Virus record (IMG/VR): IMGVR_UViG_3300017971_000152
Reading direction: 5' to 3' (one strand)
DNA from: a virus
DNA: 37,474 nt
This document shows positions 1-37,474 of the stretch, one piece after another. A model generated the notes under the pieces. That model was given only the letters and a program-made list of their open reading frames with translations. It made no database searches and had not been told where the DNA came from. A program made the position numbers and the translations under genes. Each line of letters opens with the position of its first letter. Positions within the stretch are counted from its first letter, which is position 1.

Positions 1-123
1 GCTGACGCATGAGGTGACAACATGAGAGTGCCGCACAACAACCGCCACACATACTGCCCACACAGCCTGAGGGTGCTGTTTCTGACGCTGACCCTTGGCC
101 TGACCCTGTTGTGCGGCACCTCA
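1..123. repeat. Left copy of an exact 123-bp terminal direct repeat (identical to 37352..37474). This is a contig-end overlap implying a circular, circularly permuted or terminally redundant genome of 37,351 bp.
   Basis: Read directly: gctgacgcatgaggtgacaacatgagagtg...ttgtgcggcacctca occurs at both ends. The stop of ORF 35870..37363 and the start of ORF 22..816 are both duplicated. Confidence 0.9.
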
Positions 124-816
124 CAGGCTGACGTGGCCACAGTGTACGTTGCCGCCAGTGGTGACGACGGGTACACATATTGTCAAGGCACTGAGTTCTT
201 ACCTTTTTACACGTGGTGGCACATTTGCTCAGGCACGTGGGGGTCAAAAAACGCCAACACATCGTTTGGGACCATACCAGTTGGCGCAAGGTACACAGCG
301 GCTCAAACCGATTTTGTTTTTTGGCGTGGCCGCGTGAGGTTTGACCTCAGTGGACTCAAGGGTACTGTGACCACGGCAGAGCTCAGAGTGTTTATATGGC
401 GCAACAGTGAGACTCTTGGGTCAATAACAGTCAAACGCATTGCTGACGACTGGCCTATTGACTCGAGTGACTACGGCACCGGCGGTGTCTTTATTGGCAG
501 CAAGGCGTTTCCAGTCAGCGTGGGTCAATACAACCACATTGCGGTCAACGCTGACACCGTCACCGCGCACATGGGTACTGGCGCGTACCTGTGCTTGGGA
601 GTTGGCACCACCAGGATTGAGTCATGTGCTGGCCCACAACCAACAGGCAACCACTTTTTCGACTTTTACACATATGACTTTGGGTCAAACCAACCGTACC
701 TATACATTGAGTACACACCGCCGGCTGTGCCGCCAAGTGGCCGCCGGCAACCAGTGGTATGCGTCACAGGCAACGTGGCTGACGCCGGCTCGTATTATAT
801 GGGGGGTGTGAAATGA
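22..816 (+). CDS. Secreted or exported protein of the tail-fibre module, with an N-terminal signal peptide and a possible DNRLRE/CBM-like beta-sandwich
   Basis: ATG is preceded by GAGGTGA. The N-terminus LRVLFLTLTLGLTLLCGTSQA/DV looks like a signal peptide with an AXA-type site. The motif RVRFDLSGLKGTVTTAELRVFIW resembles the FDLS...A.L.ly signature of DNRLRE-type domains. ATGA overlap with the next gene. Confidence 0.75.
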   Translation: MRVPHNNRHTYCPHSLRVLFLTLTLGLTLLCGTSQADVATVYVAASGDDGYTYCQGTEFLPFYTWWHICSGTWGSKNANTSFGTIPVGARYTAAQTDFVFWRGRVRFDLSGLKGTVTTAELRVFIWRNSETLGSITVKRIADDWPIDSSDYGTGGVFIGSKAFPVSVGQYNHIAVNADTVTAHMGTGAYLCLGVGTTRIESCAGPQPTGNHFFDFYTYDFGSNQPYLYIEYTPPAVPPSGRRQPVVCVTGNVADAGSYYMGGVK

Positions 817-1868
817 CACGCTCACAGAGGTTGTGTGTTGCCGTCATGGCAGTGCTCTTGGCTCTCGTCGTCAACCAGTGCGTGCTCACGGTGGCCGTGG
901 CTCAGCACATACACGTACCTGGCACCAAACACCTCGTGCCGGTTGTGCCGGCTGACTCACTGGGCAACGCATACGAGTTGTACGAGGCTGAAATTGACAG
1001 TGTCGTCATGCGCACGTACCTAGTGGTCAACGGTGTGGCCACGCTGTGGCGGGTTGACTACGGTGACAGTTTGGGGCCAGGACTGTGGGGCAAGGTCATT
1101 GACGCTGACAGCGCCGGCGTACAAGGTGACTATGTGTGCCGGTCAGTCATATACACCGTACAAGGGCGCACGCCACCCTCTGTGGACCGTTGGCAAGTCA
1201 GTGACGACTTTGACATATTTGGCAATGTGCCGGTCACCATTGTCTGTGTGGACACGTCACAAACACCTGACGCGGCTGTGCCGGCGGCCACTGTGACCGT
1301 GCGCTCGAGTGACGGTTGGGTTGTTGCTCATGGCCGTGCCAACAGCGCCGGCGTTTTCAGTTTCACGTACCCTGAGCCCGACAACCCTGACACCCTCTTG
1401 GTTGGCGGTGAAACTGTGCCTGGTGGCGTGCAGTTTCCCGCGGCTGAAAGCCTCTTTGTGTACCAAACGGCTGTCACTGACAGCCTCTTGGGGTATGAGT
1501 TTGACCCTGGTGACCCAGTCAACCCCATGAGAGTCATGGCCGTTGGGTACTTGCAAGAGGGTACCGGCCAGGGTGTGCCCAACGTGACCATTGAGTGTGA
1601 GCTTGTAGTGCCGCCAGGGTACACCAACATACCCACAGTCACCTCAACGGGCGCGTTTGTTATGAGCCCATTTGACACCACCACTGCCGCTGACGGCACG
1701 TTTGTATTTGAGTTGTACCGCAACTCTGACATAACACCCGCCAACACCCAGTGGCGGGTCACCACCAAATACACTGACTACCTCAGCCGCCGGCGTTACA
1801 AGCAACAGACTTTCAGCATTGGTGCGGCTGACTCGAGCCCATATAACATTGGCAAACTGGGGGGTTGA
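813..1868 (+). CDS. Secreted protein with two carboxypeptidase-regulatory-like (Ig-like) beta-sandwich segments; probable tail-fibre accessory or adhesin
   Basis: Signal-peptide-like N-terminus CVAVMAVLLALVVNQCVLTVAVA/QH. ATVTVRSSDGWVVAHGRANSAGVFSF and TTAADGTFVFELY match the V.V.d.G....td..G.f.f pattern. SD is GGGGGG. Confidence 0.75.
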   Translation: MTRSQRLCVAVMAVLLALVVNQCVLTVAVAQHIHVPGTKHLVPVVPADSLGNAYELYEAEIDSVVMRTYLVVNGVATLWRVDYGDSLGPGLWGKVIDADSAGVQGDYVCRSVIYTVQGRTPPSVDRWQVSDDFDIFGNVPVTIVCVDTSQTPDAAVPAATVTVRSSDGWVVAHGRANSAGVFSFTYPEPDNPDTLLVGGETVPGGVQFPAAESLFVYQTAVTDSLLGYEFDPGDPVNPMRVMAVGYLQEGTGQGVPNVTIECELVVPPGYTNIPTVTSTGAFVMSPFDTTTAADGTFVFELYRNSDITPANTQWRVTTKYTDYLSRRRYKQQTFSIGAADSSPYNIGKLGG

Positions 1869-1871
1869 CCA

Positions 1872-2222
1872 TTGGACACGGCAGAGCTCGTCAAACTGGG
1901 TGCCGCGGTTGGTGTTCCCCTTGGTGGTACGGTTGCCGTGGGGGTGTGGTTTGCTCTTGGGCGCACTGTTGGCTCACTCAATGGCAGTGTCACCAAGCTC
2001 AAGGCATTGCTCGAGGTTGAGGTGAAACAGCGTGAACAACTCAAGGCTGACCTTGAGGGTGACCGGCGTGAGCTCAAAAAGGACATGACAACGGCACTCG
2101 AAAAGTGTGCGGCAATGCACACACGAGAGCATGAAACTATTTTCAGCCGGCTCAACCGTCATGGTGAGAGCATTGCGGCACTCAAGGCTCAAGAGGTCAA
2201 GGCAAAGAGAGGTGCGTCATGA
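1872..2222 (+). CDS. Membrane-anchored coiled-coil protein (holin, antiholin or spanin-like candidate)
   Basis: TTG start 7 nt after GGGGGG. One N-terminal TM segment (GAAVGVPLGGTVAVGVWFALG) followed by a charged coiled coil. Sits upstream of the endolysin. Confidence 0.6.
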   Translation: MDTAELVKLGAAVGVPLGGTVAVGVWFALGRTVGSLNGSVTKLKALLEVEVKQREQLKADLEGDRRELKKDMTTALEKCAAMHTREHETIFSRLNRHGESIAALKAQEVKAKRGAS

Positions 2223-2422
2223 AAGTACCGCCATACATGAAAATGCCGCCACACGTCGAGGTCAGCGGCCTCAAAGTGAGTACAGGCATGAGCATTGTGG
2301 CCGTCATACTCGTTGGGGGGTATGTGGCACTGTGCGTCAAAAACGGCAACCTCGAGGCTCTCAGCGCACCCATGTGGTTTGCGTTGGGTTGGTTTCAGCG
2401 TGGGCGCACTCAAAAGGTATGA
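2219..2422 (+). CDS. Small two-TM membrane protein (class II holin candidate)
   Basis: 67 aa with TM segments MSIVAVILVGGYVALCV and LSAPMWFALGWF. ATGA overlaps at both ends. Confidence 0.6.
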   Translation: MKVPPYMKMPPHVEVSGLKVSTGMSIVAVILVGGYVALCVKNGNLEALSAPMWFALGWFQRGRTQKV

Positions 2423-2925
2423 CTATGGGGCAAGAGGCACTCATTGGCGTTGACGGTGGCCCAACGCCAGGGTGGTGCGTCACCAACGTGGTGGCAACCA
2501 GGGTGTTGGCATGGGGTACGGCTGACAGCGTACTTGACCTCAGGCTCAACCTGAGGCCATTTCTGCAAACGTACCGCGTGCGTGGCGTTGCCATTGAGCA
2601 ACCCATACACAGAGCTCAAGGTAAGTATGTCAAGGCCGGTGGCGCACCCAACTGGGTGACATATGGCTTGTTGTTGTGCCTCACGGCTGACTTTGACCTC
2701 GAGCTCAAAGAGGTCAACCCCGCGACGGCGGCCAGGGTGGCAAGTGGTGGTATTGTGTCAGCCACCAAGGCTGACATGAAACGAGGCATTGAGAGTGAGT
2801 TTGAGAGCTTGCCTCACTGGTTGGGGCCGGCTACAACTGACGCCAGGCAAAAGAGAGAGTTGAAACAACATGCGTACGACGCTGTGGCAGTGGTTTTAGG
2901 CGCACGAGCCAAGGGGGTTTTCTAA
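2419..2925 (+). CDS. RuvC-like Holliday-junction resolvase
   Basis: LIGVDGGPTPGW (first catalytic Asp), VAIEQP (Glu) and HAYDAVAVVLGA (C-terminal Asp) match the RuvC fold motifs. I use the internal ATG at 2419 (ATGA overlap with the upstream stop) rather than the ORF-track start at 2107. Confidence 0.7.
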   Translation: MTMGQEALIGVDGGPTPGWCVTNVVATRVLAWGTADSVLDLRLNLRPFLQTYRVRGVAIEQPIHRAQGKYVKAGGAPNWVTYGLLLCLTADFDLELKEVNPATAARVASGGIVSATKADMKRGIESEFESLPHWLGPATTDARQKRELKQHAYDAVAVVLGARAKGVF

Positions 2926-3389
2926 TGAGTACAGTGAGCATTGACAAAAAGGCGCTCGAGCAAGTCATTGCGTACATAAGTACGGCAGTTGACCTCGACA
3001 AGCTCAAGAGCACCTGGCGCAAACTGGTGGCTCTCATAAGGGGCAACCCGTTTGACAGTCTGACAGAGCTCAAACAAACGGGTGAGGCACTGGCCACGCT
3101 CGTCATTGGCCTCATGGCCGCGGCTGAGGTTGCGGTGGCCGCTATCAAAGAGGCCAACCCTGACACTCAGGCCGGCCAACTCAAGCTCGAGGCCGTCACC
3201 CGCGTGCTCGACGACGTCATTGACATTGGTGGCCCATTTGGCGTCATTGCAGAGCGTTTCGACGACGACGCCATACGGGTGGCGCTCACACTCTTGGTTG
3301 GTATGCTCAACAAGCTCGTGGCCAAGGGTGAGAGTTGGGTTGACCTGTTGCCTGAGGACATGAAACCTCAGCCGGCACCTGGCCACTAA
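2925..3389 (+). CDS. Hypothetical protein, possibly related to LL-H-type holins or lysis accessory proteins
   Basis: TAATG overlap with the resolvase gene. Hydrophobic central helix LATLVIGLMAAAEVAVAAI. The C-terminal FDDDAIRVALTLLV resembles the aIEaaV tail of LL-H holins, but the match is weak. Confidence 0.6.
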   Translation: MSTVSIDKKALEQVIAYISTAVDLDKLKSTWRKLVALIRGNPFDSLTELKQTGEALATLVIGLMAAAEVAVAAIKEANPDTQAGQLKLEAVTRVLDDVIDIGGPFGVIAERFDDDAIRVALTLLVGMLNKLVAKGESWVDLLPEDMKPQPAPGH

Positions 3390-3406
3390 CATACAGGTGC
3401 ATGTGC

Positions 3407-3436
3407 AACCAACCAACCAACCGGCCTCGTGGCCGG
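3407..3436 (+). other. (AACC)x4 microsatellite running into a 6-bp GC hairpin (ccggcc tcgt ggccgg) just upstream of the endolysin RBS
   Basis: Read directly. No T-run follows, so this is not a classic terminator. Confidence 0.4.
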
Positions 3437-3449
3437 CTGAGGTACTAAC

Positions 3450-3899
3450 ATGCAACTCAGGTTTGGTGAGCTCGACGACACACCGGCCAGGCGCCAAGAG
3501 TTGCGCCGGCAGTTTGACGAGTTACGCAGTCGCACACCACGGCTGACTCAAATGGTGTACGAGGCCGCCGGTTTTGTCCTTGACCAGTTTGGCTCAGCGG
3601 TGTGCGTCACGTCAGTGTACCGGCCTGACAACCCACGCTCAGTACATGCGTGGTGGCGTGGTGTGGACATTGGCCGCAACTCGACTGGGCTGACCCGCGC
3701 ACAAATGGGTGACCTGGCCTTGTACCTCAACCAACTGTGGGTGTATGCCACCGGCGGCAACCTGTGGGCATGTGTGTACGGTGAGCTCGACAAGTACCGC
3801 CGGCACTGGGACCACTGCCACTTGCAGTGCCACCCTGACACCCATTTGAGGCCACGGCCACTCAGCCTGGCCAGACTGCCGTGTGTGCCGGCTGTTTGA
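3450..3899 (+). CDS. Zinc peptidase M15-like endolysin (VanY or L-Ala-D-Glu peptidase type)
   Basis: SVHAWWRGVD is an H-x6-D motif, and WDHCH is a D-H-x-H motif. Together they form the M15 zinc-ligand pattern. SD is GAGG, 7 nt upstream. Confidence 0.65.
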   Translation: MQLRFGELDDTPARRQELRRQFDELRSRTPRLTQMVYEAAGFVLDQFGSAVCVTSVYRPDNPRSVHAWWRGVDIGRNSTGLTRAQMGDLALYLNQLWVYATGGNLWACVYGELDKYRRHWDHCHLQCHPDTHLRPRPLSLARLPCVPAV

Positions 3900-3983
3900 G
3901 GGGGTCACTGGCCACAGGCGCCAGGCGCCACCAGGCTCAAGAGAGGCCACCAGGTGAAACAGTGAGGGGCCACCTGAGAAAAT

Positions 3984-4003
3984 GCCTCTGAGAGCCTCTG
4001 AGA
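3984..4003. repeat. Tandem 10-bp direct repeat gcctctgaga x2, inside a cluster of GAGGCCA[CT] boxes (3943, 3964 variant, 4006, 4039)
   Basis: Read directly in the large non-coding region. Confidence 0.7.
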
Positions 4004-4154
4004 GAGAGGCCACAAACAGGCCGTTTTAGGCCGGTTGTGAGGCCATACAGCCACTCATGGCTCAAGGCAAGGGTGGCCGCTGTCCAAACTGGGCTCACGG
4101 TGCGCCTGGCATGGGCCACAGTGCGGTTTCACCACTACCGCCGGCGGCCACCAT

Positions 4155-4214
4155 AACTGACACCAACTGACACCAACTGACACCAACTGACACCAACTGA
4201 CACCAACTGACACC
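4155..4214. repeat. Six perfect tandem copies of the 10-bp unit AACTGACACC
   Basis: Read directly. Degenerate copies flank the array and the period is one helical turn. The region is non-coding and the array abuts the terminator at 4222. Confidence 0.95.
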
Positions 4215-4221
4215 ACCGCAA

Positions 4222-4264
4222 GGGGGTGGCCAATAATTGGCCACCCTCTTTTGTCTGTTTTTCC
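4222..4264 (+). terminator. Rho-independent terminator ending the late/lysis transcription unit
   Basis: The 10-bp GC-rich stem gggggtggcc/ggccaccctc has one G.U pair and a 7-nt loop aataatt. The tail ttttgtctgttttt follows. Confidence 0.7.
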
Positions 4265-4377
4265 TCTTGACACCTGAGCACCAGTGGGCCACCCTGTGCC
4301 ACATGGGGGTACCGGCTCAAGCTCACCTGGCCGGTTGACGACAACTGAGGCGAGAGCTCTTGACTGTGAGGGGGAAT

Positions 4378-4575
4378 ATGGGCAAGCCACTATACAAAGT
4401 CGTACGTGTGAAATGTCGCAACGAGGCACGCACAGAGTTGACCAGGTTGGCCGGCAAACTGCAAGGCCGCAAGGGCAACGACAAACCCAAACACACCGCT
4501 GACGTCATTGACGTGCTCTTGGGTCATGTACCCAAGTGTAAGTCATTGCGCAGTGCTCTTGGCATTGAGTCATAA
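4378..4575 (+). CDS. Small DNA-binding protein, possibly a ribbon-helix-helix regulator; first early gene
   Basis: ATG follows GAGGGGGAAT. PLYKVVRVKCRNEARTELTRLA looks like a beta-strand plus helix, and HTADVIDVLL like a second helix. Confidence 0.5.
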   Translation: MGKPLYKVVRVKCRNEARTELTRLAGKLQGRKGNDKPKHTADVIDVLLGHVPKCKSLRSALGIES

Positions 4576-4577
4576 GG

Positions 4578-4850
4578 ATGGCAACCATACTGGCGTTGTA
4601 TAACTCTGACGGTTGTGTTGGCCGTTGTGACGCTAAGTGCCACGAGGCAAAAGGTACTGAGTGCCGCTGTATATGTGGCGGCAAATACCACGGCAGAGGG
4701 GGGGCACGTCACTCTGAGTTGTTGACACTTGACCCGCGTGAGCTCGAGGGGGTGAAACAGCACGCTCACGAGGACGGGTTGCACCTGGTGGTGGCCGGCG
4801 TTTCTCTAGTGGACCTAAGAAAACGGCCACGGCAGTGTGAGTTGTTTTGA
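4578..4850 (+). CDS. Cys-rich putative zinc-binding protein
   Basis: GRCDAKCHEAKGTECRCICGGKYHGRG cysteine cluster. SD is AAGG. Confidence 0.6.
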   Translation: MATILALYNSDGCVGRCDAKCHEAKGTECRCICGGKYHGRGGARHSELLTLDPRELEGVKQHAHEDGLHLVVAGVSLVDLRKRPRQCELF

Positions 4851-4966
4851 CGTGGTGAGGGTGTGCCGTGCCGGCTGAGTAGTTAGTTGTGCGTCAGAAA
4901 CTACCCACTGGTACGCATGTTGTGAAAGCCGGCGGCACCCTCACCACACCTCAAGGGGGTTGCGAC

Positions 4967-5242
4967 ATGGCACATGTCTGTGACATTTGTGACAGCCAAG
5001 CGAAACACGTTGACGAGGTCAAGAGGTACCACGTGCTCTTGGTGCCTGAGGTTGAGGTGCTCAACCCTCAGCGCACACGGGCTGACCTCTTGCGGCACAG
5101 CGTCAGGGTTGTTGACCTCTGCCAAGGTGACACCACATGCCCGGCATTTGTCATCAATGGCATAGTCAAGGGGTTGACGCACGCCAAGGTCAGCGCATGT
5201 GGTGAGCGTGGTGCCGACAAGCCTGTTGGCTCAGTGAGGTGA
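4967..5242 (+). CDS. Small Cys-rich protein (zinc-ribbon-like)
   Basis: ATG follows AAGGGGGTTGCGAC. CDIC ... CQGDTTC motifs. The ORF-track GTG at 4889 lacks an RBS. Confidence 0.55.
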   Translation: MAHVCDICDSQAKHVDEVKRYHVLLVPEVEVLNPQRTRADLLRHSVRVVDLCQGDTTCPAFVINGIVKGLTHAKVSACGERGADKPVGSVR

Positions 5243-5245
5243 GGC

Positions 5246-5464
5246 ATGGCCGAAACACGCAAATGCCCACTGTTTGAACACGCTGACCGCACCCAACCTG
5301 ACAGGCCGCAACGAGCTCATGAGACTTGGCGGCAATGCCTTGGTACTGACTGTCAGTGGTACGAGAGCAAGTGGGGTGACTGTACTGTCAAGGTGCTCAC
5401 CGCGGTTGTTGTTGACCTCTGTGAGCATACGCGCCGGCTCATTGAGAAAACACTGAGCCATTGA
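5246..5464 (+). CDS. Small Cys-containing hypothetical protein
   Basis: SD is GAGGTGAGG; 72 aa. Confidence 0.55.
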   Translation: MAETRKCPLFEHADRTQPDRPQRAHETWRQCLGTDCQWYESKWGDCTVKVLTAVVVDLCEHTRRLIEKTLSH

Positions 5465-5518
5465 CCTGTGGCCAGGTGGTGACATGCCGCCTGGCCACGT
5501 AACTGAGAGGGGTGTTGT

Positions 5519-6439
5519 ATGGCTGAAAAAGACAAGGCGGCTGAGCCTGAGGTTGAGGTATTGCCGCCACGAGAGCCTGAAACTGAGGCCGCGTTTGTGC
5601 CTGACAAACTGTGGTCACCTGAGCACATGGCCGCGTTGGTGCGGCTTGACCCCGCCAAAACCGTGCAAATGATTGAGAAAATGGTTGAGCTCTTGCGTAT
5701 GCTCAAGCCGGCTCTCATAAAGGCCACGTACGCCGGTGACTGGGTTGGACACAAGGCCGCCGGCGGCAAAATGGTGTACCACCTCGAGGAAAAGGGTTGT
5801 CAGCGCATTGCGCCGTTGCTTGGCCTCGTCGTCATTGAGCCTCAGGTACAGCGCATAAACAACCCTGACGGCTCGTACACGTACGTGTACCGTGCCGGCG
5901 CATACTCACGCACACTGGGTGTGCAACTGCCACTCATAACTGGGGCACGCACCTCGAGTGACGAGTTTTTTGCCAACCAAAAGGGTGTGCTCGACGAGTG
6001 GGACGTGGCCAAGGCCGCGGAAACCAACTGGTACTCGAGAGCGGTGCCACGGTTGGCCGGCTTGCAAGGCATGACCATCGAGGACTTGAAAGCCGGCGGC
6101 CTCGACGGCGCCAAGGTGAGCAACATTGAGTACAAGGGCAAGAAACAAAAAGAGGCCGCACAGGCGCCACCACCCAACGGTGAGGCTGACACACGCACCA
6201 TTTCAGGACCACAGGCAAATAGGTTTTGGGCCATTGCATATGCCGCTGGCCGTGCCGTTGGTATGGCCAGTGAGGACGTGCAAGCGTGGGTACATGACTG
6301 GTTGCCCAGTCAGTTTCAGGTGGCCGGTGTTTCTGACATACCGCGCAGTATGTACGACGAGGCTGTTGACAAGCTCGTCGAGTTAGGGGGTGAGGACTTT
6401 GCCGCAGAGCAACGAGCCAAGTTTGCAGAGCGTGAGTGA
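5519..6439 (+). CDS. Putative single-strand annealing / recombination protein
   Basis: Lies immediately upstream of, and overlaps, a PD-(D/E)xK exonuclease, as in exo/bet-type modules. The C-terminal ISGPQANRFWAIAYAAG...IPRSMYDEAVDKL resembles the helical tail seen in phage annealing proteins. I did not recognise a diagnostic family motif. Confidence 0.45.
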   Translation: MAEKDKAAEPEVEVLPPREPETEAAFVPDKLWSPEHMAALVRLDPAKTVQMIEKMVELLRMLKPALIKATYAGDWVGHKAAGGKMVYHLEEKGCQRIAPLLGLVVIEPQVQRINNPDGSYTYVYRAGAYSRTLGVQLPLITGARTSSDEFFANQKGVLDEWDVAKAAETNWYSRAVPRLAGLQGMTIEDLKAGGLDGAKVSNIEYKGKKQKEAAQAPPPNGEADTRTISGPQANRFWAIAYAAGRAVGMASEDVQAWVHDWLPSQFQVAGVSDIPRSMYDEAVDKLVELGGEDFAAEQRAKFAERE

Positions 6440-7460: not shown

Positions 7461-7528
7461 GAGACACAACCAGGGTGGCCGTTTGAGGTGTGGTGCCGGA
7501 GAGGCCGCAACACATTTGTTTTTTCTCA

Positions 7529-7753
7529 ATGGCCGCACTGGCATTGCAAGAGGGTGGTGGTCAGGGTGCCACCATACCTCTGTGCGTTGGTGTTGGGTGT
7601 CCCGCGTGGGCCATGCGCCGTGACGGTGGCGGTGTTTGTGCGTTTGTGGCCGCGGCACATGCGCTCATTGGACTCAACCAGGCCGCACGTCAGGTGCCAA
7701 TGCCCATTGACCCCAACATACTCAAGGGGCCATTTGGGTTGGGCCAGTCATGA
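7529..7753 (+). CDS. Hypothetical protein
   Basis: This frame is chosen because its stop overlaps the next start (ATGA at 7750). The start could instead be 7490. Confidence 0.4.
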   Translation: MAALALQEGGGQGATIPLCVGVGCPAWAMRRDGGGVCAFVAAAHALIGLNQAARQVPMPIDPNILKGPFGLGQS

Positions 7754-8407: not shown

Positions 8408-8411
8408 GGTC

Positions 8412-8738: not shown

Positions 8739-8739
8739 C

Positions 8740-9242: not shown

Positions 9243-9290
9243 CACCATAAACCAGGGTGACGAGCTCACCCGCAACACAAGGGGGTTGCA

Positions 9291-10119: not shown

Positions 10120-10120
10120 C

Positions 10121-10576: not shown

Positions 10577-10583
10577 AACTGAA

Positions 10584-10730: not shown

Positions 10731-10738
10731 GGGTATCA

Positions 10739-18050: not shown

Positions 18051-18051
18051 C

Positions 18052-26456: not shown

Positions 26457-26468
26457 GGGGGCACTCAG

Positions 26469-26621: not shown

Positions 26622-26625
26622 CGCC

Positions 26626-32100: not shown

Positions 32101-33770
32101 CAAGTCTCAAGGCTGTGCTCGAGGACCGTGACAGCCACTTTCAGGCCATGACCACTGGGCCGTTTCAGCGGCCAGGCTCAAGCGTGTACTGGCAATGTCA
32201 GTTTCTTGCATACACGTATTGGATTGACAACGGCTCACTGCCAGGCAACCACAGGTCACCCACGTTTATTGACATGTGGGTTGGCCAAGGGCTTGACGGC
32301 CACAAGCCCAAGCAAATTGTGTTGTACGACAACAGCGCATACACTGACGAAACTGACGCTGACCCCAAAACCATACCCAAGGACGTGGGCGACTACATTG
32401 CAGTGGGTTTCAAAACCAAGTGGTGTACGCCGACATGGGGCATAACAACCGGCTTGAGCGGCTCACCCAACGTGGTGGCGCAATACTGGGACGGCGCAGA
32501 CTGGGTCAACTGTACTGTACACCAGGACGACACCGCCGACATGAAAACCACTGGGTACAAAACGCACTGGTTTTCTGTGCCTTGGGACCGTGACTTGTTG
32601 AGCAACTGGGTGGCTGACCACCCGCCTGTTTTCCCTGGCAGTGACGACTTGTATTACATACGTTTCAGAATACAAACCGCCGGCGGTGCTGAGGGTGAGT
32701 ACACTGACGTCAGAGCGGCACGGCTGACCGTATGGGAAAGTGGCGATAGTGGCGCATGGTGGCCTGTTGACATGTGTTACAACCCCAACCAAGAGAGACT
32801 GTACGTCACGTTTCTTGACCGTGGCTTGTTGCAGTATAGGCTTGGGGTCATAAACCTCGACTTGAGCTCTGAGTACCCAACCAGGTCAAATGACCCGCCA
32901 ATATACACAACCCTGGCGAATTTCGACAACGAGCACGCCATACAAGGCATGGTGTACCACTCCGCTGACCACTACGTGTACGCATGTGAGACTGACGCCA
33001 GGCACAACGAGGTGCCGGCCAGGCTCGTGAAAATAAGCTCAAGTGGTGGCGTGCCAATAGTCAACGAGGTGGCCGGTGAAATAATGGCTGGTGAGTGCCA
33101 TTTGCCGGTCAACCTCATGAGTGACGGCGCTAATGACCGGCTATATGGTTTCACGGCCGACGTCGAGTGGCTCTTTTGGCAGTATGCCACTGAGTTTGAC
33201 GTGAGGCTCATGCAAGCCTCTTTTGGTGAGTCAGACACAGTGCGCACCGTGGTTGAGGCCGTGGCTGAAATAATGGCCATGCTCTGCCACATGAAACCAA
33301 CTGGTGACCTCGTACTCAAGCCTCGAGCTCATGACGACGCGGCCACCTCAGTTTTGGCGGCCACGGTACAAGCCGTATATGGGCCAAGTCAGTGGCCGCA
33401 CAGTGCTGACGCGGTGGCCGTCAACTGGCGTGATCACAGAGGCCGCACAGGCACAGAGGTGTACGGTGACACTGGTTTTGGCCGGCGGGTGCTGACCATT
33501 GACAACCCGTTTGTGCAAACACCGCACATGGCACGTGTGGTGGCTGAAAACCTGTGGTATTTCTTGGCCAACTACCGGCGCATGACCCTGGCCATGTTTG
33601 ACCTGTGGCTTGAGGGTGAAATAACTGACGCCATAAGTGTTGACGTGCCGGCTGAGCTCACGCAAATTGACCTCAGCGGCCTCGAGTGGCTTGTCATTGG
33701 ACTGCAACCCAACCCACTTGACGGCAGTGTGGGTGTCATGTTGCTCGAGCGCATACTGCCGGCCACGTGA
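29166..33770 (+). CDS. Very large tail tip / baseplate-hub protein (1534 aa), probably fusing distal-tail, hub and central-fibre functions
   Basis: ATGA coupling to the tape-measure gene. No separate Dit or Tal genes are present. Confidence 0.7.
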   Translation: MRTLTQAFQDIRNKKQGYDLLRRLLLLPQYQAPVASIVTGGKSVYVDGQMAPMFPSQVAGAVGYGDMVYVSSKRYDGLLPLVNCGVISNGRTAVNFDVPDDTFTDDDIGAYLAPAWDVTHLIADGGLSVPDLKLEGESLNKFDSGQMSVVLNDPNKWLYDSDSESGPLYMRGVMGTATSNPVAVGSYCAKITDTNASFTVDGLFPGELVMLSGAARGKRYHVYDNDADDIYVRGRLDTDGVVAGDRFIVNRSRVVYFQLHLGIEGATDQVMVMGGLIAPKAIQYNAREHTLSMTGYGMLRDLERTPAYLVSQQGGLLPKMRALKPLRYVEPPAGAPVYGPRPLRYRFESAKLTGIDLKSIESETHDGVYRLQFRRPTSWRWAMGAWTIPSGAGDSFEDTLPAHADVGGGDLTAEFQPGSYPLADDEDIAIVTTRGTQYIVKWRERVYEYPRGWRPYKYERDTLRTRRVVVEMAGDPLRPYDATHIGHPVVTFDNGPDLELRPVFDVVYWYKGGWTDRTVEAETRGGTSFSIADDTTDYLYLGARRPFGGAYFVLDDSTGWTGAGNMTMQYWDGTAWQTLTFTDLTDDFDQDGLIYWDIPLDWALKGELDGSSSTPRYYYVRIGRTINNVNTAKARQILRYQEATGAKADKLGFVTEFEYLTIGDLSDDVVIVADANGDPVPATWYTTTRLYDVVTRALDAAFYGSTKRELADCVLTSSAKFVAPWGRIPYMTSNLKVTASCFDKVRGEFVVGLENELWLLPREGEPQLIWRLPPRYEVAGLAYSEGDDSVSGMAIRREKPTESRDPAEYPEGQYSLMFELTSDNTAVLYWGYVTFALHEIVDTRYIYRTGCVVGANLVVGQLTGSSESENVIVPFPQLVIHADTLAQYVQFDHDVNSLFDEVATGGDGRLPEWLVPGFYVVSAYNTAATRLGLRVNWGTRKAFGVDYLNAGMFLESRPLTLPNCNALYFFSASSGGVTASLKAVLEDRDSHFQAMTTGPFQRPGSSVYWQCQFLAYTYWIDNGSLPGNHRSPTFIDMWVGQGLDGHKPKQIVLYDNSAYTDETDADPKTIPKDVGDYIAVGFKTKWCTPTWGITTGLSGSPNVVAQYWDGADWVNCTVHQDDTADMKTTGYKTHWFSVPWDRDLLSNWVADHPPVFPGSDDLYYIRFRIQTAGGAEGEYTDVRAARLTVWESGDSGAWWPVDMCYNPNQERLYVTFLDRGLLQYRLGVINLDLSSEYPTRSNDPPIYTTLANFDNEHAIQGMVYHSADHYVYACETDARHNEVPARLVKISSSGGVPIVNEVAGEIMAGECHLPVNLMSDGANDRLYGFTADVEWLFWQYATEFDVRLMQASFGESDTVRTVVEAVAEIMAMLCHMKPTGDLVLKPRAHDDAATSVLAATVQAVYGPSQWPHSADAVAVNWRDHRGRTGTEVYGDTGFGRRVLTIDNPFVQTPHMARVVAENLWYFLANYRRMTLAMFDLWLEGEITDAISVDVPAELTQIDLSGLEWLVIGLQPNPLDGSVGVMLLERILPAT

Positions 33771-33779
33771 GGTGAGAAC

Positions 33780-34718
33780 ATGGGCATTGGTCAGTCATAC
33801 ATACTTGGTGGTGTGAGCGCACCACAGTTTGTGCTCTTGGGTGAGCAACTGTGCCCAAACGGTGACTTTGAAAACGACGCCACTGGTTGGGCCGGTTGTG
33901 ACGGCGGCACCATTGCTCGAGTGGCTGACCCATACAGCATATGGTCAGGGTACAGCCTCGAGGTTGAGGACAACAGCGCCGTGGCATATGAGGGTGCTGA
34001 GTGTGACGTTGAGCTCGTCAGGGGTGCCAGGTACTACGTGAGCGTATGGGTGCGCCGGCACGCACTCAACAACAGCCTGGCATGGGTTGACCTGTACGAC
34101 ATCAATGACAACGACATTGGCGCGGCCTGGTGGTCACAAGCCACATTTTCAGCGTTGGGTGACGAGCAATACAGCCTGTTGACGTTTCTCTCGAACACAT
34201 GCAACAACGCCGGCACCGGCCACATGAGAGTGTGGCCGGCCTCTCATGCACTGGCCGGTACAGGCAAGGCGTATTTCTGCCACGCACGGCTGTGGCGGGT
34301 GCGAGAGGTGTTGACTCTGACCTCATACGTGGCCTCGAGTCAGGTTGGGGTGGCACAGCGCACGGCTCAGGTTGAGCAATACTTTGACCCCATTGCAACG
34401 TACTCTCACAACAACCTCAGCGGCAAGTTGACCCGTCAGGTGCGCCGGTGGCGGTATGGGGCCAACGTGCTGTGGCCTCTCGTGCGTGGCCTTGACAATG
34501 TGCTGTTGCGCCGGCTGAGCTCTGAGCGTGCGTTTGTCTTTTGGCCTCATTATGAGCCCGCAAACAAGGTTTTTTTCTCAGTGCTCGTCAGGTCAGCCGG
34601 TCCAACATTTGGGGGGTACCCACAGAGCGGTGGTGGTGACAGGTACGGTGGCCACGTGGTGCCGTTTGCCATGCGTGGGGTCGAGCCATTGGCAAGTATG
34701 CCGTTTGAGAGGGTGTGA
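33780..34718 (+). CDS. Tail fibre / receptor-binding protein with an N-terminal CBM4/9-like carbohydrate-binding domain
   Basis: CPNGDFENDATGWAG is the hallmark NGDFE..GW start of CBM_4_9-type domains. Confidence 0.65.
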   Translation: MGIGQSYILGGVSAPQFVLLGEQLCPNGDFENDATGWAGCDGGTIARVADPYSIWSGYSLEVEDNSAVAYEGAECDVELVRGARYYVSVWVRRHALNNSLAWVDLYDINDNDIGAAWWSQATFSALGDEQYSLLTFLSNTCNNAGTGHMRVWPASHALAGTGKAYFCHARLWRVREVLTLTSYVASSQVGVAQRTAQVEQYFDPIATYSHNNLSGKLTRQVRRWRYGANVLWPLVRGLDNVLLRRLSSERAFVFWPHYEPANKVFFSVLVRSAGPTFGGYPQSGGGDRYGGHVVPFAMRGVEPLASMPFERV

Positions 34719-34721
34719 GGT

Positions 34722-35240
34722 ATGGGCAAGCTCTTTGGCTCAATAGGTGGCACCTCAAACCCCAAGCTCGTTTTCAACGTGTGGGGTGAGCTCGTCGAGG
34801 CTGACACGGTGGCCAGGCCGCAACAACTGTTGTGGGCATGGGACCGTGACAGTGAGCTCAAGAGCTTGGTGGATTACACAGAGCTCGAGGTCAACCTGAG
34901 GCACCGGCTCAACCTGACGTTTGTGTACCGTTGGCTCAGCCGTGACGACGAGCTCACATGGCAACTGGCGGCACAGGCTGACGAGGTGTTGGTGTGGCCA
35001 CACAAGGACTGTGAGAGGTACTGGCCCATGAGGGTTGAGGGACCGTGGCGCCGGCAATGGTCAGCCGGCAGAGCCACCGGCCACCAAAATGAGGTGCGCC
35101 TGGTGGCGCTCAACCTCGAGAGGGTCACGTACGACTTGGGCAACCTGTTTGCATTTGGCGTGGCGGGTGGCGGTTTTGGGGCCAGTTGGCCGCCGGCCAT
35201 GCCGTATGTTGGGGGTGGCACCAGTGGCCGGTACCCATGA
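34722..35240 (+). CDS. Hypothetical tail-module protein
   Basis: 172 aa; SD is GAGG. Confidence 0.6.
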   Translation: MGKLFGSIGGTSNPKLVFNVWGELVEADTVARPQQLLWAWDRDSELKSLVDYTELEVNLRHRLNLTFVYRWLSRDDELTWQLAAQADEVLVWPHKDCERYWPMRVEGPWRRQWSAGRATGHQNEVRLVALNLERVTYDLGNLFAFGVAGGGFGASWPPAMPYVGGGTSGRYP

Positions 35241-35253
35241 CGTGACACCTAAT

Positions 35254-35886
35254 ATGAGGCCAATGCCTGAGTACGGCTCACGCAACCCCGCGGTGCGTTG
35301 GCTGTTTCGCCGGCGGCTCGAGGTGGCCGGCCAGTTTGTGGCTGAGCTCGAGCCTGAGAGCCTCATTGACGTTGGGTGCGGCAAGGGTGAGTTTGTCAGT
35401 GCTGTGGCTCATATGCCGTGGCGACCACGCCGGCTCAAGGGGGTTGACCTACACGGTGAGGTGTACTTGCTCAATGGTCATGTGCCAGGTGTTGAGTTTG
35501 ACACTCAGGACGTGCGCCGGCTCAACGAGCTCGAATTGGGGTGGCATATGGTGACGTGCCTTGACACTCTCGAGCATGTACCTGAGTTGCAACGTGCCGT
35601 GCTCGAGCTCAACCGTGTGCTCTGTGAGGGGGGCCATTTGCTGACCTGTCAACCAACTGAAACCTGGTGGTACAAGGTACTCAGGCTAATTGCCAAGGGT
35701 AAATGGTCAGCCGTGACGGCGCCGGCGTCAGGCCGGCACTACCATACGGCGGCAGAGGTACACCACAGAGTTACGAGGTGCGGTTTCAACCTGGTGAGCT
35801 CGAGGAAACTGCCAAGGCCGCCGGCTGACCTATTCCACATAAACCTGTACGTCAAAGAGGTGAGCTCACATGTCTTTTTGCATTGA
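35254..35886 (+). CDS. Class I SAM-dependent methyltransferase (Methyltransf_11/23-like, not a DNA methyltransferase type)
   Basis: Motif I is LIDVGCGKGEF, with an acidic residue in KGVDL. The post-I/III region is GWHMVTCLDTLEHVP...LNRVLCEGGHL. No DPPY/NPPY or PCQ/ENV motifs. An alternative GTG start is at 35242. Confidence 0.75.
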   Translation: MRPMPEYGSRNPAVRWLFRRRLEVAGQFVAELEPESLIDVGCGKGEFVSAVAHMPWRPRRLKGVDLHGEVYLLNGHVPGVEFDTQDVRRLNELELGWHMVTCLDTLEHVPELQRAVLELNRVLCEGGHLLTCQPTETWWYKVLRLIAKGKWSAVTAPASGRHYHTAAEVHHRVTRCGFNLVSSRKLPRPPADLFHINLYVKEVSSHVFLH

Positions 35887-37363
35887 CATACCTGACAACG
35901 CCAACGTCGAGTACGTGAAAATAGCACGGCGCACATGTCAAGACTTTGTCGGGTGGCCACTCGTACAGCGGGTGACTGGCTTCTTGTACCAGGGTGCCGT
36001 GTACTTTGACAAGAGCCTCAAGGTGAGCGCCAATTTCACAGCCAAGGCGTGGTCACTGTACTACCACAACGAGCTCACAGGCCACAACTCGAGGTATGTG
36101 CCCATTGGTGAGGTGTGCCTGGTGGTGGTGTACGAGGACTCAGGTACTTACTACGTACGAGGTGTGGCTGAAATGACGACACCCATGTTGGCTGAGGGTG
36201 CATACGAGCACGACTGTGACTTGGCTGTTGAGGCCGGTGACTTTATTGGTTTGTGGGTGGCTGAGGGGTCCAATTTCACGGTGTACGCTGACAACTACGA
36301 CGACAACCCGCCATGTGACTTGTATTATTTCAACGATGCTGACGTGAAACCGTACGCCACGCAAGCCTTGGGCACGAGCCCAAGTGACGTGTACGCCACG
36401 CGCATGTTGAGCATTGCCGTGCGCTCTGACGTCGAGGGTACACCCGCGTACGAGACAAACAACTACCGTTGCGTTGGCGCTGACCGTGGGCCGTTTCTGT
36501 TTGAGCTTGGTGTCAATGCGTGGGCTGATGGCAACGTGGTTGACGCGGCCAATGCTCTCAACGACAACAGCGGCAACTACGCATACGTGGCTGACGGTAA
36601 CACTGGGTACATATATTGTCAACTGGCCAGTGGCGTCAACAACCGTATGCTCGAGCGCATAAGACTGCAAACGAAACAGTACGGCGCCGGCGTGGTCACC
36701 GTGTATTGCACGGGCACTGACGCTGTGGGTAGTTTGGCCGGCGCTGAGGGCATTGCAGAGGGTGACTGGCAAGAAATTGTGACCATACCAGGTGACTTTG
36801 ACGACGACACGAGCGTGTTTGAGTGGTGCATACACGTGGGCATACCAACCATGAGGTGGTACCGTATCAAGATTGAGGCCAGTGGCGCCAACCAACGTGT
36901 GTACCAGTTTGCCTCGTTTCACATGGGGTCAATCACTGACGACACCATTGACCTGACACCTCATGACGGCCTCTTGCACCGTATATGGGTAACGTCTGAC
37001 CTGGTGACCCTCAAGCTCACGGCGGCTGTTGGCTCAGGTGACTCAGAGGCTCAGGTTGACGAGGCCACAGTAACAGAGCTTGGGTACTTTGACCCTGGTG
37101 AGTATGTTTATTTGAGGCACGCCAACAACCAGTACAAACGGCTCGTGCTCGACAACCCCGCAACTGAGACTGGGCCACCCAAGAAACTCAAGTTTACAAC
37201 CACGGTTGGTGAGGCTTTCAACCTTGGTGAGAGTGCTGACCAACAACTGGGGGTGTTTCAGGTTGAGGCATATGACGCCAACGACAACCTGGTGAGCACC
37301 TCACCGTGGCTCTGCAACTATGGCGCATTTGACGTCAGGCTTGGTGAGTACGCTGACGCATGA
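35870..37363 (+). CDS. Tail fibre / receptor-binding protein with a discoidin or galactose-binding-like domain
   Basis: 497 aa. RMLERIRLQTKQYGAGVVTVYCTG...WQEI...RWYRIKIEASGANQRVYQFASFHM resembles an F5/8-type-C / CBM fold. Overlaps the methyltransferase gene by 17 nt. Confidence 0.65.
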   Translation: MSFCIDIPDNANVEYVKIARRTCQDFVGWPLVQRVTGFLYQGAVYFDKSLKVSANFTAKAWSLYYHNELTGHNSRYVPIGEVCLVVVYEDSGTYYVRGVAEMTTPMLAEGAYEHDCDLAVEAGDFIGLWVAEGSNFTVYADNYDDNPPCDLYYFNDADVKPYATQALGTSPSDVYATRMLSIAVRSDVEGTPAYETNNYRCVGADRGPFLFELGVNAWADGNVVDAANALNDNSGNYAYVADGNTGYIYCQLASGVNNRMLERIRLQTKQYGAGVVTVYCTGTDAVGSLAGAEGIAEGDWQEIVTIPGDFDDDTSVFEWCIHVGIPTMRWYRIKIEASGANQRVYQFASFHMGSITDDTIDLTPHDGLLHRIWVTSDLVTLKLTAAVGSGDSEAQVDEATVTELGYFDPGEYVYLRHANNQYKRLVLDNPATETGPPKKLKFTTTVGEAFNLGESADQQLGVFQVEAYDANDNLVSTSPWLCNYGAFDVRLGEYADA

Positions 37364-37474
37364 GGTGACAACATGAGAGTGCCGCACAACAACCGCCACA
37401 CATACTGCCCACACAGCCTGAGGGTGCTGTTTCTGACGCTGACCCTTGGCCTGACCCTGTTGTGCGGCACCTCA
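37352..37474. repeat. Right copy of the 123-bp terminal direct repeat
   Basis: Identical to 1..123. Confidence 0.9.

What the first reader, a model, noticed from the sequence alone, without database searches (positions are those of the whole stretch)
1..37474. Context-dependent codon choice almost removes GAT/ATC and GGAG/CTCC from both strands; only one GATC seen
By eye I find a single GATC (33432..33435, inside TGATCA). I count only about 30 GAT and under 20 ATC, about 5 GGAG outside the pentapeptide gene and essentially one CTCC outside it (about 32960). Base composition alone would predict on the order of 100 or more for each 4-mer and several hundred for each 3-mer. This is not simple codon bias, because the codon used depends on its neighbour. 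Glu is normally GAG but becomes GAA before Ile or Met, for example gaa att at 15414 and gct gaa atg at 28819, which avoids G-AT. Glu also becomes GAA after a G-ending codon, for example ctc gag gaa cag at 28309 and atg gaa at 27019, which avoids GGAG. Lys is AAG by default but AAA before Glu, Ile or Met (aaa gag at 24542, aaa atg at 28810). Gln is CAA before Glu (caa gag at 8147). Leu before Glu is CTC or CTT, never CTG or TTG. Ser after Trp is always TCN, never AGY (tgg tca at 15243 and at least 10 other cases). Ile is ATT or ATA, almost never ATC, although C-ending codons are preferred for Asp, Asn, Tyr and His. Several of the remaining GATs are unavoidable Trp-Ile or Met-Ile junctions. Depletion of the reverse complements (ATC, CTCC) on the coding strand shows a DNA-level constraint rather than a translational one. 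One side effect is that CTCGAG (Leu-Glu) and GAGCTC (Glu-Leu) appear dozens of times, the opposite of normal palindrome avoidance. This looks like the footprint of one or more host DNA-targeting systems with very short or nested recognition words, such as the GATC family plus a GGAG-containing asymmetric site. I cannot tell from the sequence which system.
Basis: seen in the sequence. Interest (0 to 1): 0.85.

Follow-up and report, generated by a model that had tools for sequence, protein, structure and literature searches.

The report
Phage genome purged of dozens of short words
This is a complete 37-kb phage genome that has removed about 45 short DNA words (3 to 6 bases) from both strands, by choosing each codon according to its neighbours and sometimes by changing the protein, which is far more extreme than ordinary restriction-site avoidance and points to host DNA-targeting defences, some of an unknown kind.

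Summary
Exact counts are GATC 1, GAT 35, ATC 18, GGAG 8 and CTCC 11. A codon shuffle that keeps the proteins and codon usage expects 196 GAT, 95 ATC, 199 GGAG and 115 CTCC.

Depletion is the same on both strands, in all three codon phases and in non-coding DNA. It also reaches dipeptides that force a word. It is therefore a constraint on double-stranded DNA, not a translational one.

GAT/ATC and GGAG/CTCC are only the tip. About 40 to 50 word classes are purged:
- **3-mers:** GAT, GGA, CTA and TAA.
- **4-mers:** GAAG, GAAC, GAAT, GCGA and CCGA.
- **5-mers:** several.
- **6-mers:** many palindromes; 46 of 64 have 0 or 1 copy.

A model with 39 word penalties reproduces the odd codon usage and the "enriched" words (TGAC, CTCGAG, GAGCTC), which are by-products. 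GATC has no signal beyond GAT/ATC.

The two nearest relatives have normal word usage. A recently acquired pentapeptide-repeat gene is not purged.

The most likely cause is cumulative evasion of many restriction-like defences. The asymmetric 3- and 4-mers match no known system. The host is unknown.

The parts
1..37351 (.). Complete phage genome, assembled as a circle, carrying the genome-wide purge of short words. About 55 genes, all on the + strand, 96% coding, GC 57.6%.
   Evidence: The first 123 nt recur at 37352-37474.
37352..37474 (.). Assembly overlap that repeats bases 1-123 exactly (circular or terminally redundant assembly).
10731..11575 (+). Compositional island that is not purged. 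It is a Qnr/MfpA-like pentapeptide-repeat gene (ATG at 10739, stop at 11599) with 26 copies of a 15-nt tandem unit. It holds 11 of the 35 GAT and 10 of the 11 CTCC. I infer a recent horizontal acquisition.
   Evidence: Forbidden-word density is 9.1 per 100 nt here against about 1.3 elsewhere. Pfam Pentapeptide hit at 1e-49. NCBIfam Qnr and MfpA hits. Tandem repeat. The family is widespread in other siphophage contigs at up to 78% identity.
33432..33435 (.). The only GATC in the genome, inside TGATCA. It spans the codons GAT-CAC (Asp-His).
32960..32963 (+). The only CTCC outside the island (CAC-TCC, His-Ser).
15210..16574 (+). Terminase large subunit.
   Evidence: PHROG 38 at 3e-36. Nearest relative in 1.8e9 representative proteins is 42% identical.
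16599..18050 (+). Portal protein.
   Evidence: PHROG 64
20930..21874 (+). Major capsid protein.
   Evidence: Pfam SU10_MCP. NCBIfam major capsid protein at 2e-39.
26626..29169 (+). Tape measure protein, which marks the phage as siphovirus-like.
   Evidence: PHROG 167
35215..35886 (+). The only methyltransferase. It is a class I SAM enzyme of the UbiG/BioC type, located among tail genes. It lacks the [DNS]PP[YFW] and PCQ motifs, so it is probably not a DNA methyltransferase.
13789..13862 (+). Four GTTACAACC-type iterons inside the replisome-organiser-like gene (13355-14383). This is a likely replication origin. The local density of otherwise avoided words is moderately raised.

Best explanation
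The window is the complete genome (about 37.35 kb) of a novel siphovirus-like phage. Selection acting on double-stranded DNA has purged about 40 to 50 short words and their reverse complements.

The purged words are:
- **3-mers:** GAT/ATC, GGA/TCC, CTA/TAG and TAA/TTA.
- **4-mers:** GAAG, GAAC, GAAT, GGAG, GCGA, CCGA, AGAC and GCAG.
- **5-mers:** CAGCT, GCTGG, CCCGG, TCTGG, GGTCG, GCAGG, GGTCT and GCAGC.
- **6-mers:** many, half of them palindromes (CGGCCG, AGGCCT, ACCGGT, CCATGG, TGTACA, ACGCGT, GTGCAC).

The purge is achieved in three ways.
1. Synonymous codons are chosen according to the flanking bases.
2. Shine-Dalgarno sites are written as GAGG, not GGAG.
3. Dipeptides that would force a word are avoided.

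The unusual codon table follows from the avoidance: ATA is 48% of Ile, GAC 98% of Asp and TTT 79% of Phe. So does the excess of TGAC, TGAG, CTCGAG, GAGCTC and GCCGGC.

The most likely selective agent (inferred, not shown) is a large and probably changing repertoire of sequence-specific host nucleases of the restriction-modification type. Each remaining site carries a moderate cost. The fitted penalties are 1 to 6 natural-log units per occurrence, which is selection-drift balance and not lethality. This explains why about 40 GAT/ATC persist and why a newly acquired, unpurged gene is tolerated.
For: **Shown directly.**
- Depletion holds against a codon-shuffle null, with z between -10 and -22.
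- Depletion is strand-symmetric, r = 0.88, with almost no words depleted in one orientation only.
- Depletion is independent of codon phase.
- Non-coding DNA is depleted as well: the 12 main words together occur 31 times against 258 expected.
- Dipeptides that force a word are rare. Those forcing GAT occur 4 times against 21.6 expected. Those forcing GGA occur 38 times against 99. Those forcing GAA occur 48 times against 82.
- A greedy maximum-entropy model needed 39 word classes, and each of the last ones added still gave 18 nats or more.
- That model reproduces the codon usage and the enriched words.
- It predicts each codon at -0.835 bit, against -1.484 bit for a codon-usage table.
- Palindromes are 4 of the 7 six-mers depleted beyond their sub-words, although only 3% of 6-mer classes are palindromes. 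Three more appear among the residuals. This is the classical signature of Type II restriction avoidance.
- Of 488 REBASE sites with enough expected copies, 151 are below 0.2 of expectation.
- The purge is specific to this lineage.
  - The closest terminase relative (L002, 42% identical, same GC) has a GAT observed/expected ratio of 1.20.
  - The syntenic relative L007 has a ratio of 1.31.
  - 4-mer classes below 0.1 of expectation number 16 in the window and 0 in each of three controls: L002, L004 (another siphophage from the same study) and the reference Pseudomonas phage D3112.
- No DNA methyltransferase was recognised in the genome, which fits a passive evasion strategy.

**From the literature.**
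Against: - The strongest signals are asymmetric 3- and 4-mers (GAT, GGA, GAAB, SCGA, where B = C/G/T and S = C/G). No known bacterial restriction system recognises so few bases.
- Published surveys find essentially no avoidance of Type I, IIG or III sites (PMC6286503).
- Most 4-bp palindromes, which are the commonest Type II specificities, are not avoided: GGCC 442, CCGG 291, GCGC 221 and TCGA 179 copies.
- All 16 NGATN contexts are depleted 5-fold or more. A union of 5- and 6-bp sites that contain GAT cannot therefore explain the 3-mer depletion.
- The unpurged island carries 13 GGAG/CTCC and 14 GAT/ATC, so these words are not lethal at present.
- The host and its restriction repertoire are unknown.
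- About 45 independent specificities is many more than has been documented for any phage.
Confidence: 0.55

Rival explanations
1. A few nucleases or nickases of very low specificity, with 3-4 bp asymmetric recognition such as GAT, GGAR, GAAB, SCGA and YTA (R = A/G, B = C/G/T, S = C/G, Y = C/T), produce the main signal. Ordinary Type II avoidance adds the 5- and 6-mers. The enzymes could belong to an undescribed host defence. Alternatively the phage could encode them to degrade host DNA, in which case its own genome must lack the sites. The chlorella-virus nickases that recognise CCD and RAG are a precedent for 3-bp recognition (from my own knowledge).
For: - GAT/ATC is depleted about 20-fold in every flanking context and every codon phase.
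- GAA is tolerated only as GAAA: 282 copies, against 17, 5 and 17 for GAAC, GAAG and GAAT.
- These words give the largest likelihood gains, 643, 465, 324, 326 and 300 nats.
- Most early genes have no recognisable function.
Against: - No bacterial system with such specificity is known.
- No nuclease was found in the genome other than a Cas4-like exonuclease and a RuvC-like resolvase.
- The island carries many of these words and is tolerated.
- The residual sites are not confined to unavoidable positions.
Confidence: 0.2
2. CRISPR PAM purge. Repeated escape from CRISPR-Cas interference has removed short protospacer-adjacent motifs from both strands.
For: - PAMs are the best-known asymmetric 2-4 nt motifs read on double-stranded DNA in either orientation.
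- TTC/GAA, TAA and TAG are PAMs of some type I-B and I-C systems (my own knowledge).
- PAM depletion in phages has been reported (PMC4246573, listed).
Against: - TTTC, which contains the TTC PAM, is enriched (GAAA/TTTC 292 observed against 95 by Markov expectation), while VTTC (V = A/C/G) is depleted.
- GAT/ATC, GGA/TCC, GCGA and CCGA are not PAMs that I know of.
- PAM loss cannot explain the missing 6-bp palindromes.
- Reducing the number of PAMs gives only a proportional benefit, so selection on each site would be weak.
Confidence: 0.05
3. Avoidance of the target motifs of a mutagenic DNA-modifying defence, such as a cytosine deaminase that prefers WTC or YCC (W = A/T, Y = C/T). This would be analogous to APOBEC3 footprints in animal viruses.
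For: Many purged words, read on one strand, end in TC or CC after A, T or C: ATC, VTTC, TCC, CCC, CTCC and CTTC.
Against: - The replacements show no consistent mutational direction: GAT to GAC, ATC to ATA or ATT, GAA to GAG, GGA to GGC or GGT.
- The expected products TCT and AAT are themselves depleted.
- It does not explain CTA/TAG, TAA/TTA, SCGA or the palindromes.
Confidence: 0.05
4. Selection on translation or on mRNA: codon-pair bias, avoidance of internal Shine-Dalgarno-like GGAG, or avoidance of RNase or toxin cleavage motifs.
For: All genes lie on one strand, and codon choice depends on the neighbouring codon.
Against: - Reverse complements are equally depleted on the coding strand, r = 0.88.
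- Non-coding DNA is equally or more strongly depleted.
- CTCC is as rare as GGAG.
- All codon phases are affected.
Confidence: 0.02
5. Artefact: an assembly or sequencing artefact, or a synthetic recoded genome.
For: The restricted vocabulary looks designed.
Against: - The same genome was assembled independently in ENA, Logan and JGI data.
- The ORFs are intact and have distant phage homologues in conserved gene order.
- Dipeptide-level avoidance and an unpurged, horizontally acquired island are natural evolutionary signatures.
Confidence: 0.02

Closest known systems
Restriction-site avoidance in dsDNA phages (Sharp 1986, Karlin, and Rocha 2001 from my own knowledge; Rusinov et al. 2018, PMC6286503)
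   Same: Strand-symmetric under-representation of short words in a phage genome. Many 6-bp palindromes are eliminated completely. The genome is probably non-temperate and has no recognisable DNA methyltransferase.
   Different: - The scale is about 45 word classes, not one to a few.
- The strongest words are asymmetric 3- and 4-mers that match no known restriction specificity.
- The commonest 4-bp palindromes are not avoided.
- The avoidance dictates the whole codon table and reaches amino-acid sequence.
- The host is unknown, so no word can be matched to an enzyme.
GATC (Dam, MboI, DpnII) avoidance in enterobacterial and other phages, such as T7 and Staphylococcus phage K (my own knowledge)
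   Same: GATC is nearly absent: 1 copy against 139 expected from composition.
   Different: Here GATC is fully explained by depletion of the 3-mer GAT/ATC in all contexts (0.45 to 0.6 expected, 1 observed). GATC itself is therefore not the unit of selection.
PAM depletion in phages of CRISPR-bearing hosts (Kupczok and Bollback 2014, PMC4246573)
   Same: Very short asymmetric motifs are depleted on both strands.
   Different: The reported PAM depletions are modest and concern known PAMs. Here depletion is 5- to 100-fold, the words are not known PAMs, and TTTC is enriched.
Dinucleotide or short-motif evasion of innate immunity in animal viruses: CpG and ZAP, TC and APOBEC3 (my own knowledge)
   Same: Synonymous recoding of a whole viral genome to remove a very short motif that a host factor reads.
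   Different: These are eukaryotic systems acting on RNA or single-stranded DNA, with one motif each. This is a dsDNA phage with dozens of motifs.
Codon-pair (codon-context) bias
   Same: The codon used depends strongly on the adjacent codon.
   Different: Here the dependence comes from DNA words read on either strand, and it is also present in non-coding DNA. It is not a translational effect.

Membership tests
Restriction-site avoidance (orthodox Type II) | Words are significantly under-represented relative to a composition- and codon-aware expectation | tested here: met
   Codon-shuffle null. Max-order Markov model with Bonferroni correction. Maximum-entropy model.
Restriction-site avoidance (orthodox Type II) | Avoided words are enriched in short palindromes | tested here: inconclusive
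   - Met at 6-mers: 4 of 7 primary 6-mers are palindromes, and 46 of 64 palindromes have 0 or 1 copy.
- Not met at 3-5-mers: the largest effects are asymmetric, and 10 of the 16 four-bp palindromes are at or above expectation.
Restriction-site avoidance (orthodox Type II) | Avoided words equal the recognition sites of restriction systems carried by the host | not testable with these tools
   The host is unknown. There are no tRNAs. Cultured phage relatives are 25% identical or less. There are no close relatives among 5.8e9 proteins.
Restriction-site avoidance (orthodox Type II) | Depletion is independent of strand, reading frame and coding status | tested here: met
GATC (Dam or MboI family) avoidance | GATC is depleted beyond what its sub-words predict | tested here: not met
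   The expectation from GAT x ATC / AT is 0.6. The maximum-entropy model, with no GATC term, expects 0.45. One copy is observed.
   6 observed against 47.5 expected once GGA/TCC and the other words are in the model, a gain of 29 nats. This ranks only 26th among the words added.
CRISPR PAM depletion | Every occurrence of the PAM is depleted, whatever its flank | tested here: not met
   For TTC/GAA, GAAA/TTTC is enriched 3-fold while GAAB (B = C/G/T) is depleted. For GAT the feature is met, but GAT is not a known PAM.
Translational codon-pair bias or internal Shine-Dalgarno avoidance | The effect is confined to the mRNA strand and to coding sequence | tested here: not met
   Reverse complements and non-coding DNA are equally depleted.

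The most novel reading that the evidence does not exclude
The genome is a negative imprint of an undescribed kind of DNA-targeting activity that reads asymmetric words of only 3-4 bp on either strand: GAT, GGAR, GAAB, SCGA and YTA (R = A/G, B = C/G/T, S = C/G, Y = C/T). The activity could be a new class of host defence. It could also be phage-encoded nucleases used against host DNA, which the phage survives by lacking the sites. In either case the phage's codon usage, and part of its protein sequence, are set by immune evasion and not by translation.
Probability: 0.3. Interest if true: 0.9.

Novelty: new variant of a known kind. Interest (0 to 1): 0.75.

Why it matters
- **Scale of the effect.** If this is correct, defence evasion alone can determine almost the entire synonymous structure of a phage genome. 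Word avoidance predicts each codon at 0.84 bit, against 1.48 bit for a codon-usage table. It also alters protein sequence. That is an order of magnitude beyond documented restriction-site avoidance.
- **A testable list of targets.** The purged words give about 45 candidate recognition sequences. The strongest (GAT, GGAR, GAAB, SCGA) match no known system, so the genome could guide the discovery of new specificities or of a new type of defence.
- **Practical consequences.**
  - Host prediction from k-mer or codon usage will fail for such phages.
  - The genome is a natural template for designing phages or vectors that resist restriction.

Tried and rejected
**Searches for relatives and for the host**
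- DNA search against 50,697 cultured phage records found no match.
- Terminase, capsid and 1534-aa tail protein scans of IMG/VR found no relative.
- A protein search of 5.8e9 sequences found only the same genome for the terminase.
- An alignment of terminase homologues was too divergent to seed a locus scan.
- No tRNA or Rfam family was found that could hint at the host.
- All assemblies of the phage are identical except for one 15-nt repeat unit, so there is no polymorphism to analyse.

**Ideas tested and dropped**
- Positive selection for TGAC, TGAG, CTCGAG or GCCGGC. A penalties-only model reproduces their counts.
- GATC as the unit of selection.
- Type III-style bias towards one orientation. 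There are almost no words depleted in one orientation only.
- A phage DNA methyltransferase. The only methyltransferase is UbiG/BioC-like and lacks DNA-methyltransferase motifs.
- Clade-wide codon usage as the cause. The relatives L002 and L007 have normal word usage.
- A union of 5-6 bp restriction sites containing GAT as the cause of the 3-mer depletion. All flanking contexts are depleted.
- Primase trinucleotide sites, transposon target sites (TTAA, CTAG), DarT motifs (TNTC; TTTC is enriched) and phosphorothioate motifs (GAAC/GTTC, GATC). Each could cover only one or two words, so they remain unproven minor contributors. These rest on my own knowledge of the motifs.

Full report
**What the window is**

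The first 123 nt recur at the end, so the window is a circular assembly of a genome of about 37,351 bp. It has GC 57.6%, is 96% coding, and carries about 55 genes, all on the + strand.

It encodes these recognisable proteins:

| Protein | Coordinates |
|---|---|
| RuvC-like resolvase | 2425-2925 |
| Cas4-like exonuclease | 6432-7460 |
| Replisome-organiser-like protein | 13355-14383 |
| Terminase large subunit | 15210-16574 |
| Portal | 16599-18050 |
| SU10-type major capsid protein | 20930-21874 |
| Tape measure protein | 26626-29169 |

It is a siphovirus-like phage. The same genome occurs in ENA, Logan and JGI assemblies. These are identical except for one 15-nt repeat unit.

It has no close relatives. 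The terminase finds only itself among 5.8e9 proteins. Its best hit among 1.8e9 representative proteins is 42% identical. Cultured phages are 25% identical or less. There are no tRNAs and no Rfam hits. The host is unknown.

**Checking the observation**

GATC occurs once (33432), GAT 35 times, ATC 18 times, GGAG 8 times (5 outside the island) and CTCC 11 times (1 outside the island, at 32960). CTCGAG occurs 102 times and GAGCTC 87 times.

Against 300 synonymous-codon shuffles that keep the proteins and the global codon usage, GAT is 35 against 196 +/- 10 expected. ATC is 18 against 95, GGAG is 8 against 199 and CTCC is 11 against 115.

The codon table is itself distorted. GAT is 2% of Asp codons, ATC 3% of Ile (ATA 48%), TCC 1% of Ser, GGA 3% of Gly and TTC 21% of Phe.

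I also used a neutral baseline in which codons are drawn only according to third-base composition. Under it, GAT/ATC is 39 against 800 expected outside the island.

The neighbour-dependent switches are dramatic.
- Ile is ATA in 102 of 102 cases before C, and ATT in 163 of 173 cases before G.
- Leu before GA is CTC 108, CTT 41, CTG 0 and TTG 2.
- Glu before AT is GAA 15 and GAG 2.
- Ser after GG is TCN 36 and AGY 1.
- Val is mostly GTC before A (208) and often GTT before G (172, beside GTG 156).

**The constraint acts on DNA**

- The log(observed/expected) of a word and of its reverse complement on the coding strand correlate at r = 0.88 for 4-mers and 0.78 for 5-mers.
- Hardly any word is depleted in one orientation only.
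- The three codon phases are depleted equally. The ratios for GAT are 0.05, 0.02 and 0.05, and for ATC 0.04, 0.01 and 0.07.
- The 1563 non-coding bases contain GAT/ATC 0 times against 35 expected, GGA/TCC 4 against 59, and GGAG/CTCC 0 against 19. The 12 main words together occur 31 times against 258 expected.
- Ribosome-binding sites read GAGGTG or GAGGGGGT, not GGAG.
- Protein sequence is affected.
  - Dipeptides that force GAT (MI, MM, WI, WM) occur 4 times against 21.6 expected.
  - Those that force GGA occur 38 times against 99.
  - Those that force GAA occur 48 times against 82.

**The effect is much broader than reported**

- Sixteen of the 136 strand-symmetric 4-mer classes are below 0.1 of neutral expectation, and 24 are below 0.2.
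- A quarter of all testable 6-mer classes (those with at least 8 copies expected) are below 0.2 of expectation.
- Of 488 REBASE sites with enough expected copies, 151 are below 0.2.
- Six-base palindromes are bimodal.
  - Forty-six of 64 have 0 or 1 copy. Examples are GTCGAC (0 against 14.7 expected), ACCGGT, AGGCCT, CAGCTG, GGGCCC, CCCGGG and CTGCAG.
  - The other eighteen are at or above expectation: GCCGGC 177, CTCGAG 102, GAGCTC 87.

A max-order Markov analysis with Bonferroni correction gives these primary words:
- **k = 3:** GGA/TCC and GAT/ATC.
- **k = 4:** CCGA, GCGA, CTCC, GAAC and CTTC.
- **k = 5:** CAGCT, GCTGG, CCCGG, TCTGG, GGTCG, GCAGG and GGTCT.
- **k = 6:** CGGCCG, AGGCCT, GCGGCG, TGTACA, GGTGGG, CCATGG and CCTGGG.

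**A word-avoidance model**

I fitted a greedy maximum-entropy model. It samples synonymous codons under penalties on strand-symmetric words.

- It added 39 word classes, and each of the last ones still gave 18 nats or more. About 11 further words remained significant, including the palindromes AGGCCT, ACGCGT and GTGCAC.
- Using penalties only, it reproduces the codon table and the "enriched" words.

| Word | Observed | Model |
|---|---|---|
| TGAC/GTCA | 959 | 980 |
| TGAG/CTCA | 877 | 830 |
| CTCGAG | 102 | 71 |
| GAGCTC | 87 | 69 |

- It predicts each codon at -0.835 bit. A 41-parameter codon table gives -1.484 bit and the neutral baseline gives -1.701 bit.
- The over-represented words are therefore by-products.
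- GATC needs no term of its own (0.45 expected, 1 observed).
- TTAA has a slight signal of its own (6.8 expected, 0 observed).
- GGAG/CTCC is about 8-fold depleted beyond GGA/TCC.
- The context tables show sharp rules.
  - GA is tolerated mainly as TGAS, WCGAG or AGAG (S = C/G, W = A/T).
  - GAA is tolerated only as GAAA, with 282 copies against 17, 5 and 17 for GAAC, GAAG and GAAT.
  - GAT is rare (15 copies or fewer) in every flanking context.

**The purge is specific to this lineage and was gradual**

The closest terminase relative (L002, same GC) has a GAT observed/expected ratio of 1.20 and a GATC ratio of 1.53. A syntenic 41-kb relative (L007) has ratios of 1.31 and 1.58. L004 (another siphophage from the same study) and the reference Pseudomonas phage D3112 are also normal. 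The number of 4-mer classes below 0.1 of expectation is 16 in the window and 0 in L002, L004 and D3112. The 6-mer entropy deficit is 0.99 bit in the window, against 0.21 to 0.36 bit in those three.

Within the genome, the pentapeptide-repeat gene (about 10731-11575) is an unpurged island. It has 9.1 forbidden words per 100 nt against about 1.3 elsewhere. It holds 11 of the 35 GAT and 10 of the 11 CTCC. Its family is common in other siphophage contigs, at up to 78% identity. I infer a recent acquisition.

Two observations indicate moderate selection on each site, not lethality. The island is tolerated. About 24 GAT remain elsewhere, of which 19 could be removed synonymously. The fitted penalties of 1 to 6 natural-log units per occurrence fit a balance between mutation, selection and drift.

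**Interpretation**

What is shown is a selective purge of about 45 word classes at the level of double-stranded DNA.

What is inferred is the agent. The best candidate is a large repertoire of restriction-type nucleases. Three things fit this: the complete loss of many 6-bp palindromes, the lack of a DNA methyltransferase in the phage, and the known use of site avoidance by dsDNA phages (PMC6286503).

However, that survey reports avoidance almost only for orthodox Type II sites. Here the strongest signals are asymmetric 3- and 4-mers that match no known system. The commonest 4-bp palindromes (GGCC, CCGG, GCGC, TCGA) are not avoided. A 3-mer that is depleted in every flanking context cannot be a union of longer sites. 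This part remains unexplained. It is the basis of the more novel reading: an unknown activity of very low specificity, encoded either by the host or by the phage.

PAM purge, avoidance of deaminase targets, translational selection and artefact were considered and are unlikely, or refuted, for the reasons given under the rival explanations.

**Verdict**

The constraint is on DNA and is probably driven by defence. It is not explained by GATC plus GGAG.
- It is an extreme new variant of restriction-site avoidance.
- Interest is high because of the scale, the 3-4-mer words, the effect on protein sequence, and the concrete list of candidate recognition words it gives.

Noticed in passing
window 10739-11599: A Qnr/MfpA-like pentapeptide-repeat protein with a conserved C-terminal domain of about 130 aa. 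Its family has 528 homologues, up to 78% identical, many of them on siphophage contigs of about 36-44 kb next to early genes. It may be a mobile DNA-mimic anti-defence gene. Here it is the only part of the genome that has not been purged of the avoided words.
   Followed up: partly
window 10813-11206: A 15-nt tandem repeat (CGCGGACCTCAGCAA, 26 copies) encodes the pentapeptide repeats. The ENA assembly (L001) has one unit fewer, so the copy number varies between samples.
   Followed up: partly
window 4155-4215: Six perfect tandem copies of the 10-nt unit AACTGACACC, in the longest non-coding region (3900-4377). The period is one helical turn. This may be an operator array, an origin, or a packaging or regulatory site.
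   Followed up: no
window 13789-13862: Four GTTACAACC-type iterons, with start-to-start spacings of 13, 26 and 13 nt, plus an (AG)n / AGAGGGAGAGAG repeat at 13876-13908. Both lie inside the replisome-organiser-like gene. This is a likely replication origin, and avoided words are locally more frequent (3.1 per 100 nt).
   Followed up: partly
whole window (gene starts): Shine-Dalgarno sites are written GAGGTG or GAGGGGGT, never GGAG. TGA is the stop codon in 45 of 55 genes and TAG in only one.
   Followed up: partly
whole window: One of the few strand asymmetries: CCCCC occurs 0 times on the + strand (19 expected), while GGGGG occurs 60 times (63.5 expected).
   Followed up: no
window 35215-35886: A class I SAM methyltransferase of the UbiG/BioC type sits among the tail genes, next to proteins with carbohydrate-binding modules. 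It may modify a virion or a glycan. It lacks DNA-methyltransferase motifs.
   Followed up: partly
L004 (ENA ERZ27247358 k141_2474411), whole locus: Another siphophage from the same study has normal 3-4-mer usage. It nevertheless lacks 24 of the 56 six-base palindromes that have 3 or more expected copies, including CTCGAG and GAGCTC, which are abundant in the window. Its restriction pressure, and probably its host, therefore differ.
   Followed up: no
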